64,000 nt of DNA from Promethearchaeota archaeon (GTDB lineage: Archaea; Asgardarchaeota; Lokiarchaeia; Sigyniarchaeales; SOKP01), in the NCBI GenBank assembly GCA_048940925.1, contig JBHLOC010000018.1:8415-72414 (forward strand), in the 5' to 3' direction. Below, piece after piece: positions 34,157 to 45,484 of this stretch. Below the pieces are notes generated by a model. That model saw only the letters and a program-made list of their open reading frames with translations. It had not been told where the DNA came from and did not search any database. The position numbers and the translations under genes were made by a program. Numbering within the stretch: the stretch's first letter is position 1; each line of letters opens with the position of its first letter.

Positions 34157-35872
34157 ATGATTATTAATAATCAATCAAGAAAGATAAAATGGATAAGTAT
34201 TTTTGCTGTAATTTTCATAATATTTGCTATTTGCCTTCCAGGAGCATTAAAATATGGGAACAGCAAATCTAACTCTGTTTTTAATCCAAATGATTCTATT
34301 AGAGATTCTAACAATACAAATTATTTTTCAAAGGAAAATTATAGTGAAATTCTTTCAACTGAAAAACATGGTTTAGGAAATATAACTATAACTGACTTGA
34401 TTTTTAATAGATTAGAATTAGGTATCTGTAGCAATAATGATACCTATCCTCTTCTTGCCAAAGATTTTAATTCTACTGCGATAAATATGACTATTGAAGG
34501 TTTTAAATTTATAAAAGTTGTCACACCAGCTAGGAATGACAATCTTGATGATTCTTTCCCCAATAAAAATAATATTACTGTACTTTTGAATGAATCTCTT
34601 TACTTTAAGTATAATAATTCAAAAACAGGCTATTTAATTTATCTTTCTCGTTTAGCAAAAACTCGTCTTATTGATTTCTATATACAGAATGGAACAAATA
34701 AAGTGAAACTTGAAGAAAAAACAGATTATCATTTTGATAAACATAATTTTATTGTATTTCACTATAAGGATTTTTTCCGCGAAGATCCAACATTTAATTT
34801 TTCTGGCAAGATTTTTAATTTTTCAATGTATCTTATATGGGAATGGGATATATTTATAGAAAATTGGGATCTAGTCCAAACTAATGATCTAATGGTAGGA
34901 AAAGCATTAGAAAATTACTCAGTTGATTATACATACAGTTTCAATTTAGTAGGAAAAAAGCATAACCAAAGCAATTTAGCTCCTTTTATTGATACAGATA
35001 ATTTGTATGGTGCCTTGAGGATTGATTTATTTGATAAAGAGCTATTAAATGACCACATTTTAGAATTAAATAATGAGATAGTGGATATTAACACTCATTT
35101 AAATCCAAATAAAACTATAAATGTTTTACCATCTGATTTTTTTTTATTGAATTCTAGCAGTTTTAGATTAAATTTTACTACAATATTCACCTTGAGATTT
35201 GTGGATCCTGTTGGAAGATTTTGGTCTATCGATAGACTTGTAGCAAAGCGGGATGTACGAGAAAGGATTTATTTTCCTTCCTTAATTGCAGGACCAAAGC
35301 ATTTTTATCTAAAATCTTTAACTTTTTATGAGCCTAGTATTCTTTTTGAAAATATGATTAGTGCTTATCCATTGTTCGAAAGAGAGATGGATTATTATTA
35401 TATAAATACATCTATACCGGGAGAAACGAAGTTGATGGTGAATATGCCTTTTCTGATTTTTGGAGAAACATGCCCTTTTAGCCTTAAGTATAATACTTCA
35501 ACAACTTTGAAAATTATTATTACCGATACCATCCGTATGCCCTTAATAGGAGCAAAAGTTGAACTTTTTTATAATGGAGTAGAATATGGAACATACATTT
35601 CAAATAATGAAGATCAACCAATACCGCTTGGAAACACAAATGAGAATGGTGAAATCATTCTAAATAACGTTATTATTGGAAATTACACTGTGAGAGTGTA
35701 TTACAGAAATTCATTTATTAAGGAAGCCTCAGTCAATACTTACAAGGCAAGTAATTATGTGCGCACTAACATACTCCATTTTCCTGTCTGGATAGTGGTT
35801 TTTGGAGCCTTAAGTGGGACTTTTATAGCTATAGGTATGATATATTATCTAAAAAATAAAAAATTACGATAA
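34157..35872 (+). CDS. Cell-surface protein with N- and C-terminal TM segments
   Basis: Hydrophobic termini, many N-x-S/T sequons, TNENG prealbumin-like beta domain near the C-terminus. Confidence 0.7.
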   Translation: MIINNQSRKIKWISIFAVIFIIFAICLPGALKYGNSKSNSVFNPNDSIRDSNNTNYFSKENYSEILSTEKHGLGNITITDLIFNRLELGICSNNDTYPLLAKDFNSTAINMTIEGFKFIKVVTPARNDNLDDSFPNKNNITVLLNESLYFKYNNSKTGYLIYLSRLAKTRLIDFYIQNGTNKVKLEEKTDYHFDKHNFIVFHYKDFFREDPTFNFSGKIFNFSMYLIWEWDIFIENWDLVQTNDLMVGKALENYSVDYTYSFNLVGKKHNQSNLAPFIDTDNLYGALRIDLFDKELLNDHILELNNEIVDINTHLNPNKTINVLPSDFFLLNSSSFRLNFTTIFTLRFVDPVGRFWSIDRLVAKRDVRERIYFPSLIAGPKHFYLKSLTFYEPSILFENMISAYPLFEREMDYYYINTSIPGETKLMVNMPFLIFGETCPFSLKYNTSTTLKIIITDTIRMPLIGAKVELFYNGVEYGTYISNNEDQPIPLGNTNENGEIILNNVIIGNYTVRVYYRNSFIKEASVNTYKASNYVRTNILHFPVWIVVFGALSGTFIAIGMIYYLKNKKLR

Positions 35873-35878
35873 ATTACT

Positions 35879-36205
35879 TTGATTGTTATTTTCTGTGATA
35901 ATATAGAAGATTTTATTTTATTTTTAAAGAAACGAATAATGGATGAGATCTTTTATGAATTCAAAGAAATTACAAGTGATTCATTGTCAATTAAAGGAAC
36001 TATTGAAATTGTGCTTCATTTTTTAGCTAAAATTGAAGAAATTATTGTACTTTATGAGACTAAGCAAATAATAGTGAAATCTAGTGATTCTAATATTGAT
36101 AAACAAGTAATTAACGCTTTAAAAAATATTTTTCAAGGAGTTGATGCCTCATTATCACTTGTAAAGGGAAAAATAAGAGAGATATTCCTAAGCTATTCTT
36201 CATAA
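35879..36205 (+). CDS. Hypothetical protein
   Basis: 108-aa ORF directly downstream of the previous gene. Confidence 0.65.
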   Translation: MIVIFCDNIEDFILFLKKRIMDEIFYEFKEITSDSLSIKGTIEIVLHFLAKIEEIIVLYETKQIIVKSSDSNIDKQVINALKNIFQGVDASLSLVKGKIREIFLSYSS

Positions 36206-36244
36206 ATTTGAGGTAAAATAAGAGGAATATTTAATATTTTCATT

Positions 36245-37834
36245 TTATTTATGGTTGATTTGTTCCCCATATCCTATTAGTCGATAACGCCTATTAATTA
36301 TACGAGAAATAGCATATATGAAATCTTCAGGGGGACAAATAGGAGGTGTAAGTTTTATAATAACACTATTTTTTAAAATTTTCGTAACAGTCCCACCTGT
36401 TTTTTCCGTTCCTACTACAAGTAATAATTTCTCTCCATGTTTGAGAGGTTGAACTTTCATTTGAACTTCAGATCCAATAACTCTATCTAAAAGATTTACA
36501 TTCAGCTCAACTTCGCTAAGAATTTTAGGTAATGTTCCTATTTTTCCAACTAAATGGCCAATTAGATGATCTCCTTTTGTTAACGCGGGATCTAATTTTG
36601 TACCTAACCCTATGAGACCTCCAGGTTTAGCATTTTCCAAAGGATTATTTCCTTGGCTTATACTTACAACCGTAGATTTTAATGGTACATACTGATCTTT
36701 AACTCGTATCCCCGGGCTAATTTCGATTTGGTCTCCAACTATTATTTTTCCTTTTAAAACAGAGCCCCCTATTACACCACCTTTTAAATCCTTAATTTCT
36801 TTACCTGGACGATTGATATCAAAGGATCTCGCAATTAAAAATTGAAATGACTCCTCCTCTTTAAATTTTGGAGTAGGAATAACCTCTTCAAAAGCTCTTA
36901 TTACAAGATTTATATTCGCCCCAAAAACTGCCGATAAGGGTATAATTGGAGCATTTTCAGCAACAGTTCCTTTTATAAATTCTTTTATTTGTTGAAAGTT
37001 CTCTAAGGCTTGTTCTCGAGAAACAGCATCAATTTTATTTTGTAATATAATAATATTTTTTATGCCCGCAATATTTAAAGCCGCTAAGTGTTCCCGTGTT
37101 TGAGGTTGAGGGCATTGCTCATCAGCTGCAATTAAAAGGCAAGCCCCATTCATTAATGATGCACCACTTAACATAGTTGCCATTAATATCTCATGACCAG
37201 GCGCATCAACAAATGAGATATTTCTTCTAAATTCTAGATTTCCTTTACATTTTGGGCAAGAGAATCGAGCTTGTCCTTTTTCTCTATCTTTTTCTGCAAG
37301 ATAAGCCGTTGTATATTCATTACATTCGGAACAATAAAGAATTGAGGCATTAGAATACCCTAACTTTATTGAAATTCCTCTTTCTTGCTCTTCTGAGTGG
37401 CGATCAGTCCAATCTCCAGTTAGGGCTTTTACTAGGGTTGTCTATATGTTTCATGAAGGATTCCTTCAAAAAATTCCATGATCAACATGCCCTACAAGCC
37501 CTATATTACATTCTGCTTGTTGTTTGATTAATTCTTTTATCTTCTTAGCTTTCTCTTTCGAAACTGGCTTTGCTTTAGGTTTAGATATCGTTTCTTCTTT
37601 AATTATTTCTTTCACTTCATCAGATTGTTCTATTTTTTGACTTTTCTTTAGAATTTTTTTAGCATTTGTAATATACTTCTCTGCTGTTGCTTTTCCAACA
37701 CCTTTTATTTTTAGCTTTAATAAATCCTTGGGTTCAGCATTTGCAAGTTTTTCAACAGAATCAATATTAGCAGCCTTTAATCTTTCTGCTGTTGCTTTTC
37801 CAATTCCACTTACATCTTCCAATTTATATGACAT
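36245..37834 (-). CDS. eif2g: Translation initiation factor 2 gamma subunit with N-terminal HhH domain; join(37474..37834, 36245..37443), 519 aa after removing a 30-nt insert
   Basis: Exon 1 ends NIGLVGHVDHG. Exon 2 continues in the same frame TTLVKALTGDWTDRHSEEQERGISIKLGY, CxxC/CxxC knuckle, FVDAPGHEILMATMLSGA, PQPQTREH, QNKID, RSFDINRPG, RLIGYG. Confidence 0.95.
37444..37473 (-). other. Candidate bulge-helix-bulge intron in aIF2-gamma mRNA (30 nt)
   Basis: Removing UUUUUUGAAGGAAUCCUUCAUGAAACAUAU restores AAG (Lys of GHVDHGKTT); both junctions fall after nt 2 of 3-nt bulges flanking a 4-bp helix. Confidence 0.8.
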
Positions 37835-37963
37835 TATAGTTTTATTTTATATTATTTAGGTCCTATATATCTAGTTTCCTAAGAACAATTAAGCTAGTAT
37901 TTTTTATTAAATTATTCAATATATTGACTACTTTAAAAAGAATTAACTTTAAGATCAATTAAA

Positions 37964-38188
37964 TTATTTTGTTTTAATTGTTTTAATCCCACCAGGTTTT
38001 TTTTCCATCTCTTTATAGGACACTCTTAAAAGGCTATCTACATAAAAAGTCGATAGTTTTTTACAGTGATTACACATAATATAGACAGGTGCTGGATATT
38101 GAGTAGGATCTATATCATCCATCTCAATCTTAAATGTAATTTTAGCTTCACAGTGTGGACAAAAATTAAATCGGAGAGGCATATTCAT
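37964..38188 (-). CDS. Small zinc-ribbon protein
   Basis: CPHC...CNHC. Confidence 0.7.
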   Translation of the reverse strand: MNMPLRFNFCPHCEAKITFKIEMDDIDPTQYPAPVYIMCNHCKKLSTFYVDSLLRVSYKEMEKKPGGIKTIKTK

Positions 38189-38280
38189 TTAATTTAATTT
38201 TATAATAAATAGATTCTTATTTCTATTATATTTATTTTAATATAAAATTAATAGTAAAAATTACCTGTTACTGATTCTAA

Positions 38281-40407
38281 ATGGCTAAAGTATTATTAAA
38301 AATAATTATTTGTTCATTTCTTATACTTCTGATTTCCTTTCCATTTTTAAACTTATTATTAGTTTATTATGTGGATAATTCAAATAATTTAGAGTTTCCA
38401 GGAACAGATATTGATCTTAGTAATAACTCTAAAGTCGATTTATCCTTATTACCAAAAATTGATTATGAAGTATTAAATAACCTTTGGTATAATCCAAAGA
38501 TCGAAATGTTGATTATAACACCCAATAGATCCGATTTCATAAATACTATTAAACCATTGGCAGATTGGAAAAATGAAAAAGGTGTAAAGACGATTATCTT
38601 AAGTAATTATTCATTATATAATGGTGTGGATGATGCTAATTCTATTAGAAATATGATAAAAACTTACTATGAAAAAGAAAATATTAAATGGGTTCTTTTA
38701 GCTGGTGATGCCCAAGATGATTTGATCCCTATTAGAAAGGTTTATAATCCCGATGTATTAAGATGGGGTGAGGGAGCTAAAGAATCGATTCCAGGTGATT
38801 ATTATAAACCAACTGATTTTTATTATGCGGATCTCACAGGCAGTTGGGATAGTGATGGTGATGGAAACTGGGGAGAGGCTCCTCAAGATAATACTTATGG
38901 TTTAGATGAGATCTCATGGATTCCTGAAGTCTATGTTGGTCGCTTTCCAGCTGATACAGCTAATGAACTTGAAATTTTGGTAAACAAAACATTAAATTAT
39001 GAAGTGGATCCTAATATTGGTAATTGGATGAATAGAATGCTTTTAGCGGGCGGGATATCTAGTTATGTTCCCCAAGAATATGAAAGCCGCTTAACAGATT
39101 ACATTATCCAAAATTATGCTAAATCTGAAATGAATTATACTCATTTAGTAGAAGAAGATGGTAACCTTACACAATCAAGTCTCAAAAATTATTTTAATCA
39201 GGGATACTCAACAGTAATAATGGCAGGTCATGGAAGCCCTACAGCTTTCTATCGAAATCCTAGTCGAGTAGGTTATTCATCTTCAGATGCAAACTCAAGC
39301 TTGAATGCCTATATGCCGTCTTTAGTGTATCTCGATGCCTGTTCCACCTCTAGCTATGATTATAATGATAATAATTTAGGAGAAGTTTTAATAAATAGAT
39401 TAAATGGTGGTGCTATTGGTACAATTGGAGCCCTAAGATTTAGTTATTATTTCGAAAATGATGATAATCTTGAAAAATTAAATCGTGGGAATGCGAAATT
39501 ATTTTGGGAAGAATTTTTTCTTAATAAAAAATTTCAACAAGGTAAAGCATTGTATGATTCTAAGGTTTCTTACATAAATAGTGATTATTATAAGAGAGGG
39601 GACGGATCTACTGATTATGATTTTGAACGTAAAAATATCTTAACTTATTGTCTTTTAGGTGATCCTGAAGTTGATATCTTTACTGATCAACCAAGAAAAG
39701 CATTAGATCCATTTAGTGAAGATATTTATGCAGGTCAATTAGTTAGTCTTGTTATTAAAGATAAATATAATCAGATAGTTCCAAATGCAAGAGTTCACTT
39801 TAAAACTGTAGATAACATATATTATACTGTATATGCGGATGCTAATGGAGTAGTAGAGTTTAGAGTTCCCGCACAAACCACTCAAATATATAATGTGACA
39901 ATTACGGGACATAATTTGATACCTTCCAATTTTAGTTTTTTAACATTAAGAGATAATACAATGCCAGAATTAAGCAGTGTAGATATTGTTCCTCAAAACC
40001 CAAATACAGCAGATACTCTTTATTTCAATATCACAGCTTTTGATAATCTTTCGGGGTTAGAAAGTGTCTATCTATTCATTTCTAAAGATAATTTCAAACA
40101 TTATTCCAATTATAGCGGGTCAAATGGAATCTTAGATAATGAACGCAGGTTTATGCTCGATATTGGTAAATTAAAACCTGGAAAATATTCGTACCTTATC
40201 ACTTTAAGAGATTATGCTAATAATACAAAAATTTTTTATGATAACAGTTTTAAATTTACAATACCTAGACCTTTGATGGATTATATACTTCCTATTTCTT
40301 TAATGATAATAATAGGAGCTGCAGGAATTTCAATTTTTATCTTTTATGAGGGATTCCTAACCTATTTCAAAAAAATAAGAAATTTTGAAAAAAATTTATC
40401 ATCATAG
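38281..40407 (+). CDS. Peptidase C25 (gingipain-like) membrane-anchored protease
   Basis: VLLAGD, TDFYYADL, VGRFP, AGHG...DAC His/Cys dyad, LLGDP; N- and C-terminal TM. Confidence 0.88.
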   Translation: MAKVLLKIIICSFLILLISFPFLNLLLVYYVDNSNNLEFPGTDIDLSNNSKVDLSLLPKIDYEVLNNLWYNPKIEMLIITPNRSDFINTIKPLADWKNEKGVKTIILSNYSLYNGVDDANSIRNMIKTYYEKENIKWVLLAGDAQDDLIPIRKVYNPDVLRWGEGAKESIPGDYYKPTDFYYADLTGSWDSDGDGNWGEAPQDNTYGLDEISWIPEVYVGRFPADTANELEILVNKTLNYEVDPNIGNWMNRMLLAGGISSYVPQEYESRLTDYIIQNYAKSEMNYTHLVEEDGNLTQSSLKNYFNQGYSTVIMAGHGSPTAFYRNPSRVGYSSSDANSSLNAYMPSLVYLDACSTSSYDYNDNNLGEVLINRLNGGAIGTIGALRFSYYFENDDNLEKLNRGNAKLFWEEFFLNKKFQQGKALYDSKVSYINSDYYKRGDGSTDYDFERKNILTYCLLGDPEVDIFTDQPRKALDPFSEDIYAGQLVSLVIKDKYNQIVPNARVHFKTVDNIYYTVYADANGVVEFRVPAQTTQIYNVTITGHNLIPSNFSFLTLRDNTMPELSSVDIVPQNPNTADTLYFNITAFDNLSGLESVYLFISKDNFKHYSNYSGSNGILDNERRFMLDIGKLKPGKYSYLITLRDYANNTKIFYDNSFKFTIPRPLMDYILPISLMIIIGAAGISIFIFYEGFLTYFKKIRNFEKNLSS

Positions 40408-43158: not shown

Positions 43159-43596
43159 TTGAGCCTCAATTTAATCATTATTGATTCTAATTTTATTCTT
43201 CTTCCTTTTCAATTTAAAGTGGATTATTTACATGAAATAAGGCACATTATAGAGGGTAAACTTAAGTTCATTATATACCAACAAGTTTTGAATGAACTTG
43301 AATCAAAGAAAAAAAGAGAATCTCGTGCTACTAAATTTATCAGGCTTCTTGAGTCAGGTTTATCATATTTAGACAAGCATAAAAGTGATTATGATTTTAA
43401 TTTTTTGGATGATGTTAAAAACTCTGATGAGACCACAGATGATTTTCTATTGAGAAAACTAACAGGCTTAAAAAAGGAAGGTAATATCCTTTATCTTGCT
43501 TCAAATGATTCAGAATTACGTAAAAAAGCAAGAGAACGAGAAATAAATACAATTTTCCTTAGGAAAAAAAAATATTTGTTTATAGAGAGAGTTTAA
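43159..43596 (+). CDS. PIN-domain protein (Fcf1/Utp24-like)
   Basis: IIDSNF...VLNEL...TDD...ASNDSELRKKA. Confidence 0.8.
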   Translation: MSLNLIIIDSNFILLPFQFKVDYLHEIRHIIEGKLKFIIYQQVLNELESKKKRESRATKFIRLLESGLSYLDKHKSDYDFNFLDDVKNSDETTDDFLLRKLTGLKKEGNILYLASNDSELRKKAREREINTIFLRKKKYLFIERV

Positions 43597-43752
43597 AAAA
43601 TTATTAATAGGACTATAAAATCATATTATATATTAGAATATAAATTAGTAATTGCATTTAAAAGATTCAATAAAGAATTGTTATACTTTAGTTATTCCAA
43701 GGTTTATCTAAAATCGAGATTTATCGCACAATTATAAATAGGAGGGAAAAGG

Positions 43753-44268
43753 TTGTCCAAACCAATGATTATAAAGTGTATTACAGCAGGAGATGGTGGT
43801 GTGGGTAAAACAACACTCCTTTATCGATATGTGGAGGGAAGATTTTTAGCAGACACACGTATGACCTTAGGTGTAGAGTTTTTCATAAAAGAAGTAGATG
43901 TTGGAAGGAAAAAGATAAATTTACAGGTGTGGGATTTTGGAGGTCAGGAGCATTTTCGACCATTATTAAAAAATTATGCATTGGGGGCAAGGGGAGCATT
44001 ATTACTTTTTGATCTTACTAGACCATCAAGCTTAGACAAAATTGACCAATGGGTTAATATCTGTAGAGAAGATAACCCCAATATACCTATTATTTTTTTG
44101 GGTACAAAACTAGATTTAACTGATTTAATATCTGTTGATGACAGTTATGCATTGAGATTTAAAACTAAGTATAATTTTCTTGATTATTTAAAAATCTCCT
44201 CGAAAACTGGTGAAAATGTGAATTTAGCATTTAAGATGTTAGCAAAAGAAATCATAAGGAATTTATAA
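43753..44268 (+). CDS. Rab-like small GTPase
   Basis: GDGGVGKT, TLGVEF, WDFGGQEHF, TKLD, SSK; TTG start after GGAGG. Confidence 0.93.
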   Translation: MSKPMIIKCITAGDGGVGKTTLLYRYVEGRFLADTRMTLGVEFFIKEVDVGRKKINLQVWDFGGQEHFRPLLKNYALGARGALLLFDLTRPSSLDKIDQWVNICREDNPNIPIIFLGTKLDLTDLISVDDSYALRFKTKYNFLDYLKISSKTGENVNLAFKMLAKEIIRNL

Positions 44269-44284
44269 GATTGTACTCTTAATA

Positions 44285-45484
44285 TTAAATCCTGTTCATC
44301 AGAATATTTGTAATAGCTTTTTTATTTAAATTAACAGGATTATTCTTTAATCCAGTCTTTTCTAAAATTTTATTAATATCATCTTCTTTTATGCCATATT
44401 TAGCTAGCTTATCAATTTTTAAATCTTCTGTCCATTTTTCAAGAGTTTTTATTAATATTGTAGTATAGTGGTCTATTTCATCGTTGTCTATCTCTTCTTT
44501 ACCTATTAATAAAGCACCAATTTTAGCATGTTTTCTCAACCCTACTTTACCTGATGGTCCAGATTCCAGCAAAATTTTAATATTCATCTTAGTAGCTTCA
44601 GCTAGAAGTGTACCACATATTACACCATGAGGAACATCAAAAAATCCTCCAATTGAAGAAGCTAATCCATGAACTATTCCTAAACCTGCATTTGCTAATG
44701 AAATTCCGGACATAAGTGAGCCATATGCCATTGCTGCTCGAACATTGATATTTGATGCTCCAGTTGAACACGCTAAGATTAAATTTTCACTCATATATTT
44801 CATCCCACTTAAAGCTAAAGCATCAGTTATAGGATTAGCTTTTGGAGAGACATAAGCTTCAAGTAATTGTGTAAAGGCATCCATTCCACACGCGGCAGAA
44901 ATAGCTGGTGGACAAGAAATCATTAACTCAGGATCGATTATTGCTACATTTGGTATTAAATTATCGTGACGAAGGGATTTCTTAAACCCATTTGGACCTA
45001 TCTCACTAATAACTGCATTTTTAGTAGCTTCACTTCCTGTACCTGATGTAGTTGGAATCGCTATATATGGAATTTTCTGACCATCATGAACTTTGTCGCC
45101 TACTCCTTCTAAGTAATTCTTAATTGAATCTCTTTTTGGAATCATTGCGGAAATTGCTTTACCTGCATCTGTAACACTTCCTCCTCCTATACCAACGACT
45201 AAATCAGGTTTATTATCTCTATATTGTCTTGCTACGTTATCAACTATATTAGGAGAAGGTTCACCCGAAATTGAAACAACTGAATAGTTGTATGATGCAT
45301 TTTCTAATTTGTTTATTATCTCATCCCACTTTCCAGATCTTTTAAGTGATTTTTCACCTATTACAAACAACATATTCTTTCCATACATAGGCAATATATC
45401 AAAAAGTTGAGTTAATTTACCAGAACCAAAAATTATATGAGGGATACTAGCAAAATTAAAAGAAAAAACCATGTTATTCATCAT
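44285..45484 (-). CDS. Iron-containing alcohol dehydrogenase
   Basis: GGGS..DAGK, PTTSGTGSE, DAFTQ, HG...HG. Confidence 0.92.
   Translation of the reverse strand: MMNNMVFSFNFASIPHIIFGSGKLTQLFDILPMYGKNMLFVIGEKSLKRSGKWDEIINKLENASYNYSVVSISGEPSPNIVDNVARQYRDNKPDLVVGIGGGSVTDAGKAISAMIPKRDSIKNYLEGVGDKVHDGQKIPYIAIPTTSGTGSEATKNAVISEIGPNGFKKSLRHDNLIPNVAIIDPELMISCPPAISAACGMDAFTQLLEAYVSPKANPITDALALSGMKYMSENLILACSTGASNINVRAAMAYGSLMSGISLANAGLGIVHGLASSIGGFFDVPHGVICGTLLAEATKMNIKILLESGPSGKVGLRKHAKIGALLIGKEEIDNDEIDHYTTILIKTLEKWTEDLKIDKLAKYGIKEDDINKILEKTGLKNNPVNLNKKAITNILMNRI

What the first reader, a model, noticed from the sequence alone, without database searches (positions are those of the whole stretch)
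37430..37500. Bulge-helix-bulge intron splitting the P-loop lysine codon of aIF2-gamma
Seen (minus strand): CAU GUU GAU CAU GGA A|UUUUUUGAAGGAAUCCUUCAUGAAACAUAU|AG ACA ACC CUA. The unspliced frame has three stops (UGA, UGA, UAG). Exactly one 30-nt excision (37444-37473) restores GHVDHG-K-TT. That excision independently matches hBHBh' geometry: exon helix GUUG(A)UC/GACAAC, central helix AUGG/ACAU (3 Watson-Crick pairs plus one G-A), bulges AA|U and AU|A cut after nt 2, and a 10-bp intron helix UUUUUGAAGG/CCUUCAUGAA (one G-U, one U-U) with an AAU loop. Established: EndA-spliced introns are typical of archaeal tRNA and rRNA; the well-known protein-gene case is crenarchaeal cbf5. Inference: an essential initiation factor in an Asgard archaeon needs tRNA-type mRNA splicing, which is of interest for intron evolution and recalls non-spliceosomal HAC1/XBP1 splicing. 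Annotation pipelines would call this two ORFs or a pseudogene.
Basis: partly seen in the sequence, partly recalled or inferred. Interest (0 to 1): 0.92.

Follow-up and report, generated by a model that had tools for sequence, protein, structure and literature searches.

The report
tRNA-type mini-intron in Asgard aIF2-gamma
The only gene for the essential translation initiation factor aIF2-gamma in this Asgard archaeon is broken, inside the codon of its GTP-binding lysine, by a 30-base insert shaped like a tRNA intron. Thirty related species carry such an insert at the same spot with compensating mutations, so the mRNA is almost certainly cut and rejoined by the tRNA-splicing enzymes, which papers confirm for only one archaeal protein gene (cbf5).

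Summary
On the minus strand, 37444-37473 is a 30-nt insert with three in-frame stops between GGA A and AG ACA, and only this excision restores GHVDHG-K-TT.

It is the genome's only aIF2-gamma gene, and independent metagenome contigs carry the same insert. In the GTDB family, 30 of 125 genomes with the gene have a 27-32-nt insert at exactly this site; most are 29 nt and shift the frame. All 30 keep a 3' segment complementary to the exon bases AUGG, 3-nt bulges, and an internal hairpin whose sequence varies while its pairing holds:
- 86-89% of cells are paired, against at most 52% in slid controls.
- There are compensatory changes, including ACGG:CCGU.

dN/dS is 0.09-0.20, the same as in intronless relatives. 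The genome encodes two EndA paralogs and RtcB. No RNA data exist for this gene.

New points:
- The window's intron arrived on a roughly 0.57-kb tract recombined in from another species.
- A Thermoproteales-labelled MAG has a canonical BHB intron one base further on.
- I verified two more such introns in this genome, in purA and an EF-2 paralog.

This scan has noted the same kind of intron before on other DNA. In print I found only cbf5.

The parts
37474..37834 (-). aIF2-gamma exon 1: ATG 37834, helix-hairpin-helix N-terminal domain, linker, and the P-loop up to GHVDHG plus the first base (A) of the lysine codon
   Evidence: ORF list; Pfam HHH_5 E 7e-12. It is continuous with exon 2 in 46 intronless congeners, whose open frames are 513-549 aa.
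37444..37473 (-). 30-nt bulge-helix-bulge mini-intron (type A): U + UUUUUGAAGG + AAU loop + CCUUCAUGAA + ACAU + AU; in-frame UGA, UGA, UAG
   Evidence: Same-site inserts occur in 30 of 125 family genomes. Independent DNA contigs carry it.
36245..37443 (-). aIF2-gamma exon 2: AG of the lysine codon, TTLVKALTGDW... to the stop codon 36245-36247 (GTP_EFTU, domain 2, eIF2_C)
   Evidence: It is 94% identical to the intronless G018 protein. dN/dS is 0.087 against G018.
37476..37479 (-). H helix, 5' strand (exon): AUG G of the His-Gly codons
   Evidence: It pairs with 37446-37449. In relatives the partner is CCAU or CUAU (4 of 4 pairs), and ACGG pairs with CCGU in G075.
37446..37449 (-). H helix, 3' strand (intron): ACAU, giving 3 Watson-Crick pairs plus G.A
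   Evidence: ACAU is kept in all type-A copies.
37473..37475 (-). 5' bulge A A|U; predicted cut between 37474 and 37473
   Evidence: Geometry. The bulge is [A/U]A[U/A/C] in all 24 copies tabulated.
37443..37445 (-). 3' bulge A U|A; predicted cut between 37444 and 37443
   Evidence: The bulge is A-N-A in all copies.
37450..37472 (-). Intron hairpin h': 10 positions on each strand (one G-U, one U.U) closed by an AAU loop
   Evidence: Predicted by MFE folding. The loop-closing G:C becomes A:U in the X9 contig and in L118.
37437..37486 (-). Span that holds the two strands of exon helix h: GUUG(A)UC at 37480-37486 and GACAAC at 37437-37442
   Evidence: The two pairs next to the bulge (C:G, U:A) are present in most relatives: 68% and 86% of 22 distinct sequences.
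37390..37960 (.). Roughly 0.57-kb tract of foreign ancestry carrying the promoter region, exon 1, the intron and about 55 nt of exon 2
   Evidence: Sliding-window identity: 53-75% to the sister genome G018 inside the tract against 82-94% outside it, and 77-88% to the intron-bearing G001 and G003 inside it. The 5' and 3' trees conflict, and AU tests give p 2e-54 and 6e-7.

Best explanation
37444-37473 is a bulge-helix-bulge (tRNA-type) intron in the pre-mRNA of the only aIF2-gamma gene.

Proposed mechanism. In the transcript, the exon bases AUGG (His-Gly codons) pair with ACAU near the 3' end of the intron. A 10-bp intron hairpin and a short exon-exon helix flank this 4-position helix. That leaves two 3-nt bulges on opposite strands (AAU and AUA). 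The splicing endonuclease EndA is inferred to be the two-subunit, broad-specificity type because the genome has two paralogs. It cuts after the second nucleotide of each bulge. RtcB then joins GGA-A to AG-ACA, which recreates the P-loop lysine codon and a 519-aa HhH-aIF2-gamma protein counted from ATG 37834.

Shown: the insert and its geometry, its conservation and covariation across species, purifying selection on both exons, and the presence of the enzymes.

Inferred: cleavage and ligation in vivo.

History. The intron is old and patchy within the family, and alleles that carry it move between species by homologous recombination. The window's copy came in on a roughly 0.57-kb tract.
For: (1) The gene is single-copy and essential. 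The only other hits in the genome are paralogs 25-31% identical.
(2) The break is at the same site in 30 of 125 family genomes across 9 genera. Most inserts are 29 nt, so they cannot be translated through.
(3) In 24 copies tabulated, the 4 nt that sit 2 nt before the 3' junction complement the exon AUGG (CCAU, CUAU or ACAU). The pairing covaries: ACGG:CCGU in G075, and CGGG:CCCG in a Thermoproteales-labelled MAG.
(4) Pair counts. In 16 type-B copies 86% of cells are paired, against at most 52% when the partners are slid, and 4 pairs show changes on both sides. In 22 distinct 29-nt copies H is 96.6% paired and the outer part of h' 84%, with all 4 outer h' pairs showing double changes; slid controls reach at most 49%.
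(5) Type-A variants show G:C to A:U at the loop-closing pair and U-G to U-A.
(6) MFE folds of relatives give the 4-bp helix, a 3-nt bulge and the hairpin directly.
(7) dN/dS is 0.09-0.20 for intron-bearing pairs and 0.15 for an intronless pair. The spliced reading gives full-length 514-525-aa open frames (stop to stop) in all six congeners with an insert.
(8) The genome has two EndA paralogs and RtcB. Asgard EndA is reported to be the (alpha-beta)2 type with the L1 loop associated with relaxed-BHB cleavage (PMC5829648).
(9) The cut position, after the second bulge residue, is the one documented for cbf5 (PMC2738675).
(10) I read two more inserts with the same geometry in this genome: purA (GGGG/CCCC helix) and an EF-2 paralog (UCAG/CUGA helix).
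(11) The insert is present in independent DNA assemblies.
Against: There is no RNA evidence for this gene.

The window's own central helix has only 3 Watson-Crick pairs plus a G.A. MFE folding instead pairs U37473 with A37449. That leaves a 3-bp helix and a GAA bulge, and cutting in that register would shift the frame.

Folding-energy z-scores of the window's segment are unremarkable (-1.4, -0.8).

The exon helix h is short. In G043 and G057 the intron hairpin is degenerate.
Confidence: 0.9

Rival explanations
1. The gene is a pseudogene or a decaying allele, and the insert is a disabling insertion that is never removed.
For: There are three in-frame stops. Annotation pipelines call truncated proteins for such genes.
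Against: It is the only aIF2-gamma gene in a genome estimated 100% complete. Thirty species keep an insert at the same site with both exons intact. dN/dS is 0.09-0.20, the same as intronless genes. Covariation preserves a structure that a dead gene would have no reason to keep.
Confidence: 0.02
2. The ribosome skips the insert during translation (programmed bypassing, as in phage T4 gene 60), or the stops are recoded.
For: The take-off codon would be GGA, as in gene 60. A hairpin lies just downstream and a stop follows within three codons.
Against: No GGA-matching landing codon lies before AAG or AG-ACA in any variant. The lysine codon itself is split, with A in exon 1 and AG in exon 2, and a codon-to-codon hop cannot rebuild it. 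The conserved complementarity between exon AUGG and the 3' end of the insert has no role in bypassing. Most relatives have 29 nt with unrelated interior sequences.
Confidence: 0.02
3. The insert is removed from the RNA, but by some route other than EndA plus RtcB, such as another endonuclease or a self-cleaving element.
For: The window's BHB is relaxed (G.A in H). No enzyme assay exists for this lineage.
Against: Thirty nucleotides is too short for any known self-splicing intron, and no Rfam family matches in the window. The conserved features are exactly those EndA reads: two 3-nt bulges four pairs apart, with cuts after the second bulge base (PMC2738675). Both enzymes are encoded.
Confidence: 0.04
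4. The insert is an assembly or sequencing artefact, or comes from a contaminating contig.
For: The genome is a MAG with 8.4% estimated contamination.
Against: Contigs from three other studies span the insert with no gaps. Five other species of the genus and 24 of the family have the same feature. Three further metagenome contigs carry it.
Confidence: 0.01

Closest known systems
BHB intron in the cbf5 (pseudouridine synthase) pre-mRNA of Crenarchaeota (Desulfurococcales, Sulfolobales; Watanabe 2002, Yoshinari 2006, Yokobori 2009 = PMC2738675)
   Same: Both are short introns inside a coding sequence with a relaxed BHB, cut after the second bulge residue. Both organisms have a hetero-oligomeric EndA. 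[quoted passage not shown] Both show patchy presence and absence among relatives.
   Different: The gene (aIF2-gamma) and the phylum (Asgard/Promethearchaeota) are different. Here the same site holds several unrelated hairpin sequences. There is direct evidence that an intron-bearing allele was passed between species by recombination. Splicing is experimentally shown for cbf5 but not here.
Archaeal tRNA and rRNA BHB introns, including the many introns of Asgard tRNA genes (bioRxiv 10.64898/2026.10.13.758758; Marck and Grosjean 2003)
   Same: They share the hBHBh' architecture, the presumed enzymes (EndA, RtcB) and the size range. [quoted passage not shown]
   Different: The host RNA is an mRNA, so splicing must restore a reading frame and must compete with translation of the unspliced message.
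BHB element in the 5' UTR of a Haloferax volcanii mRNA (PMC7714728; role recalled from the paper's abstract and an earlier scan note, not re-read in detail)
   Same: EndA acts on an mRNA.
   Different: That element lies in an untranslated region of a euryarchaeon. It does not interrupt a codon.
IRE1-dependent HAC1/XBP1 mRNA splicing in eukaryotes
   Same: Both are non-spliceosomal removal of a short intron from an mRNA by a protein endonuclease, followed by a tRNA-type ligase (RtcB in metazoa).
   Different: The nuclease (IRE1) and the RNA signal (paired stem-loops rather than a BHB) are different. HAC1/XBP1 splicing is stress-regulated, and no regulation is shown here.

Membership tests
Archaeal BHB (EndA-spliced) intron | [quoted passage not shown] | tested here: met
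   In the window the motif is relaxed: AUGG/ACAU has 3 Watson-Crick pairs plus G.A, the bulges are AAU and AUA, h' has 10 positions and h has 2 adjacent pairs. In relatives H is a full 4 bp, 96.6% of cells are paired, and MFE folding recovers it.
Archaeal BHB (EndA-spliced) intron | Cuts after the second nucleotide of each bulge give the functional junction | tested here: met
   The predicted cuts at 37474|37473 and 37444|37443 are the only excision that restores GHVDHGKTT. The same holds for the 27-32-nt copies. The cut rule is taken from PMC2738675.
Archaeal BHB (EndA-spliced) intron | Helices are maintained by compensatory substitutions among homologous copies | tested here: met
   (shuffle and slide controls). 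ACGG:CCGU and CGGG:CCCG in H. G:C to A:U in the type-A hairpin.
Archaeal BHB (EndA-spliced) intron | The host encodes the splicing endonuclease and the RtcB ligase | tested here: met
   Two PF01974 genes (102 and 70 bits) and one RtcB (556 bits). The alpha/beta assignment and the L1 loop were not examined.
Archaeal BHB (EndA-spliced) intron | The intron is absent from the mature RNA | not testable with these tools
   No RNA run holds the locus. The spliced junction was not found in the metagenome contigs.
Programmed translational bypass (T4 gene 60 type) | Matching take-off and landing codons flank the skipped gap | tested here: not met
   The take-off codon would be GGA, but no GGA lies 5' of the resuming codon. 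The lysine codon is split 1+2 across the gap.
Self-splicing introns (group I or II) or known ribozymes | A catalytic RNA core recognisable by a covariance model, with a length of hundreds of nucleotides | tested here: not met
   The insert is 30 nt. There are no Rfam matches at gathering score anywhere in the window.

The most novel reading that the evidence does not exclude
Splicing of this intron is not merely housekeeping but a switch. Unspliced mRNA would yield only a free 123-aa helix-hairpin-helix protein, terminating at the UGA three codons into the intron. Spliced mRNA would yield the HhH-aIF2-gamma fusion. Supply of the initiator-tRNA carrier would then be tied to the cell's EndA/RtcB capacity, in a lineage whose tRNA genes are reported to be heavily intron-laden. 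This would be a primitive form of regulated or alternative mRNA splicing in the closest archaeal relatives of eukaryotes.
Probability: 0.1. Interest if true: 0.9.

Novelty: new member of a known kind. Interest (0 to 1): 0.78.

Why it matters
In the papers I could search, splicing of an archaeal protein-coding sequence by the tRNA endonuclease is confirmed only for crenarchaeal cbf5 (PMC2738675).

Here the same mechanism is required for an essential translation factor in Asgard archaea. It holds in a quarter of the species of one family, with strong comparative support. Together with the purA and EF-2-paralog cases in this genome, this indicates that protein-gene introns of this type are a regular feature of these genomes rather than a curiosity.

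Practical consequences: gene callers truncate such genes, so proteomes, marker-gene sets and completeness estimates for Asgard MAGs are affected.

Evolutionary consequences: intron-bearing alleles can be traced moving between species by recombination. The same P-loop site is occupied in both Asgard MAGs and a Thermoproteales-labelled (TACK) MAG. This gives a tractable system for studying how protein-spliced introns are gained, lost and tolerated in the lineage closest to eukaryotes.

Tried and rejected
RNA evidence: no RNA holder is listed for the locus.

Spliced or intronless allele: an exact search of the metagenome contigs for the spliced type-A junction (GAYCATGGAAAGACAACCCTAGTAAAA) found nothing. 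A protein search found no full-length form more than 93% identical to exon 2, so I found neither a spliced cDNA nor an intronless allele of this species.

Genome-wide census: three scripts combined a BHB descriptor with an 'excision joins two open frames' test. One timed out. The others gave the same counts for the true geometry as for controls with the 3' partner slid, because closely spaced co-directional genes pass the frame test millions of times. I therefore give no intron count for the genome, only the two cases I read myself.

Thermodynamics: MFE folding of the window's own segment does not form the central helix, and its z-scores are not significant. I do not use folding energy as support for the window's copy.

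Rfam and ARAGORN found nothing in the window.

A regex scan of the genome for other inserts at a DHG|K P-loop site found only the aIF2-gamma case.

I considered translational bypass, a pseudogene and an artefact, and rejected them for the reasons given under the rivals.

Full report
**1. The observation**

The minus strand reads CAU GUU GAU CAU GGA A / UUUUUUGAAGGAAUCCUUCAUGAAACAUAU / AG ACA ACC CUA. The 30 nt at 37473-37444 are in frame and contain UGA, UGA and UAG.

The upstream open frame (37466-37846) begins with a helix-hairpin-helix domain (Pfam HHH_5) and ends ...NIGLVGHVDHGIF*. The downstream frame (36245-37441) begins TTLVKALTGDW and carries GTP_EFTU, GTP_EFTU_D2 and eIF2_C.

Removing exactly 37444-37473 gives GGA AAG ACA ACC, which is G-K-T-T. 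A shift of one base either way gives GGA UAG or GGA AUG.

Of 650 alternative cut-site and length combinations around the site, the best BHB score belongs to the frame-restoring one. Only 0.4% of a million shuffles of the 30 nt give an equally good central helix plus hairpin.

**2. The insert is real DNA in the only copy of the gene**

The assembly (4.8 Mb, 100% estimated completeness) has one aIF2-gamma gene. The next-best hits are paralogs 25-31% identical.

Logan contigs from three other studies span the insert without gaps: X11 with one 962-nt contig across 37150-37800, X10 and X6. A fourth run (X9) holds a diverged copy.

**3. Relatives**

In the genus, 52 of 54 genomes have the gene. In 46 of them it is uninterrupted, with HhH and GTPase in one frame of 513-549 aa. 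Six carry an insert after GGA-A:
- Type A, 30 nt: G000, G001, G003 and G054.
- Type B, 29 nt, with an unrelated interior and a frame shift: G043 and G057.

In the family, tblastn places a break exactly between residues 129 and 130 (the P-loop lysine) in 24 further genomes from 8 other genera. That makes 30 of the 125 genomes that have the gene.

I then scanned 185,579 species genomes with a pattern made of exon sequence only. It returned 22 Asgard aIF2-gamma genes with 27-32-nt inserts, one from a MAG labelled Thermoproteales, and three chance bacterial hits. Three more type-A copies came from metagenome contigs.

**4. Structure conservation**

I tabulated 24 copies:
- The four intron bases that lie two bases before the 3' junction complement the exon AUGG. 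They read CCAU, CUAU or, in type A, ACAU.
- Where the His codon is CAC, the helix is ACGG:CCGU (G075).
- In the Thermoproteales-labelled copy the helix is CGGG:CCCG and both cuts move by one base. Splicing there still yields GGG AAA ACA.
- The 5' bulge is [A/U]A[U/A/C] and the 3' bulge is A-N-A.

Pair counts on 16 type-B copies: 86% of cells are paired, against at most 52% with slid partners. Four pairs change on both sides, and none of 500 shuffles reaches the observed covariation score.

Pair counts on 22 distinct 29-nt copies: the central helix is 96.6% paired, the outer hairpin pairs 84% (all four with double changes) and the exon helix 85%. Slid controls reach at most 49%.

The hairpin interiors differ completely between subfamilies but all pair: GAAUU-A-GUCG/CGAC-AAUUC, AUUAUUU/AAAUAAU, AAUAAGAC/GUCUUAUU and AGAUUACU/AGUAAUCU.

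Within type A, the loop-closing G:C becomes A:U in two independent contigs, and a U-G becomes U-A.

MFE folding of three relatives gives the 4-bp helix, a 3- or 4-nt bulge and the hairpin outright.

**5. The gene is functional**

Reading each of the six congeneric genes with the insert removed gives an uninterrupted open frame of 514-525 aa, measured stop to stop. dN/dS between intron-bearing genes is 0.09-0.20, against 0.15 for an intronless pair.

A 29-nt insert cannot be translated through. A split lysine codon (A + AG) cannot be rebuilt by ribosomal hopping, and there is no matching landing codon. This excludes the pseudogene and bypass readings for practical purposes.

**6. Machinery**

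The genome encodes two EndA-family genes (PF01974, 102 and 70 bits) and RtcB. Published work assigns Asgard archaea the (alpha-beta)2 endonuclease with the L1 loop linked to cleavage of relaxed motifs (PMC5829648). The cbf5 work links mRNA introns to exactly that enzyme type and places the cuts between the second and third bulge residues (PMC2738675). I did not examine which paralog is catalytic.

**7. Weak points**

No RNA data were available.

The window's own central helix has a G.A at the end next to the hairpin. MFE folding prefers to pair U37473 with A37449, which leaves a 3-bp helix and a GAA bulge. Cutting in that register would shift the frame. The productive fold therefore needs the G.A to stack as a fourth 'pair'. 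All type-A copies in four species and four contigs keep ACAU, so this form is evidently tolerated, but it is the least canonical in the family.

**8. How the window got its intron**

Across 35000-37390 and 37965-38900 the window is 82-94% identical to the intronless genome G018. Between about 37390 and 37960 identity to G018 drops to 53-75%, while identity to the intron-bearing G001 and G003 rises to 77-88%. G054 is 98% identical over the first 90 nt of the coding sequence.

Trees agree with this. On the 5' 495 columns the four type-A holders form one clade (SH-aLRT 99). On the remaining 1,077 columns they fall into separate, well-supported clades among intronless genomes:
- G000 with G018 and G067 (support 100).
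- G054 with G005, G045, G047 and G066 (support 98).
- G003 with G007, G058, G011 and G055 (support 99).

AU tests reject type-A monophyly on the 3' part (p 2e-54) and reject G000+G018+G067 on the 5' part (p 6e-7).

The intron-bearing 5' segment has therefore been passed between species by homologous recombination. The tract is lopsided, with about 55 nt on one side of the intron and about 490 nt on the other. That looks like ordinary recombination rather than endonuclease-driven homing.

**9. Context in this genome**

I read two further cases myself.
- purA: UGG GGA G / 31 nt / AC GAA GGA AAA GGU restores WGDEGKGK. The helix is GGGG/CCCC and the bulges are AG|U and AU|A.
- An EF-2 paralog: the best BHB geometry, UCAG AU|U ... 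CUGA AU|G with 30 nt, gives ...MTDSDDEEQERGITI.

Earlier notes of this scan list about ten such inserts in this genome and many in other archaea, some with RNA support on other genes. I treat those as leads only. My own attempt at a genome-wide count failed.

**10. Comparison and novelty**

Mechanistically this is the cbf5 type of intron in a new gene and a new phylum. [quoted passage not shown]

Searches of the paper library for BHB or splicing-endonuclease introns in Asgard or other archaeal protein genes returned only cbf5 and tRNA/rRNA work. A 2026 preprint on Asgard tRNA introns does not treat mRNAs.

I class the finding as a new member of a known kind, of high interest to people working on archaeal RNA processing and intron evolution. 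Confidence that the mRNA is spliced by EndA and RtcB is about 0.9.

Noticed in passing
window 37475-37834 (minus strand): aIF2-gamma of this whole Asgard family carries an N-terminal extension of about 125 aa with a helix-hairpin-helix domain (HHH_5, E 7e-12). The domain is fused in frame in all intronless relatives and is listed among the precomputed Pfam domains of nearly all full-length homologues. Other families of the same order have a lysine-rich extension instead. Its function is unknown.
   Followed up: partly
L114 about 2750-2790 minus (= G000:C41, 5' end of purA, gene hit 43345-44580): purA is split by a 31-nt insert inside the catalytic Asp codon: UGG GGA G | 31 nt | AC GAA GGA AAA GGU. 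The insert has a perfect GGGG/CCCC central helix and bulges AG|U and AU|A.
   Followed up: partly
L119 (= G000:C32:27300-28250, minus strand): A second-copy EF-2-family GTPase has an in-frame 30-nt insert with a TAA. The best BHB geometry is UCAG AU|U ... CUGA AU|G, and excision gives ...MTDSDDEEQERGITI. In the PF00009 scan, only this gene and aIF2-gamma carry stops inside a GTP_EFTU match in this genome.
   Followed up: partly
L087:2023-2078 (+), contig CAZKAY010000096.1 labelled 'uncultured Thermoproteales archaeon': A TACK-type aIF2-gamma (…[36 protein letters not shown]) has a 27-nt canonical BHB intron one base downstream of the Asgard site. H is CGGG/CCCG, both bulges are AAA, the hairpin is 8 bp, and the folding z-score is -3.3. 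This suggests the P-loop codons CAY-GGN-AAR are a recurrent landing place. The taxonomy label was not checked.
   Followed up: partly
Proteins P0063, P0074, P0095, P0105, P0112, P0114: Public annotations of 403-426 aa named 'translation initiation factor IF-2 subunit gamma' lack the HHH domain. These are probably intron-bearing genes called from an internal or spurious start.
   Followed up: no
L017 and L063 (G014:C211 and G014:C104): One congeneric MAG holds two full-length, intronless aIF2-gamma genes on different contigs, which fall in one clade in both trees. This is probably a strain mixture in the bin rather than a true duplication.
   Followed up: no
L036 and L037 (G043, G057), 29-nt inserts: In these two congeners the central helix is perfect (AUGG/CCAU), but the intron hairpin has decayed to 2 adjacent pairs. 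In the 3' tree they are nearest to the intronless G012. Either the hairpin is dispensable for this EndA or these copies are on the way out.
   Followed up: no
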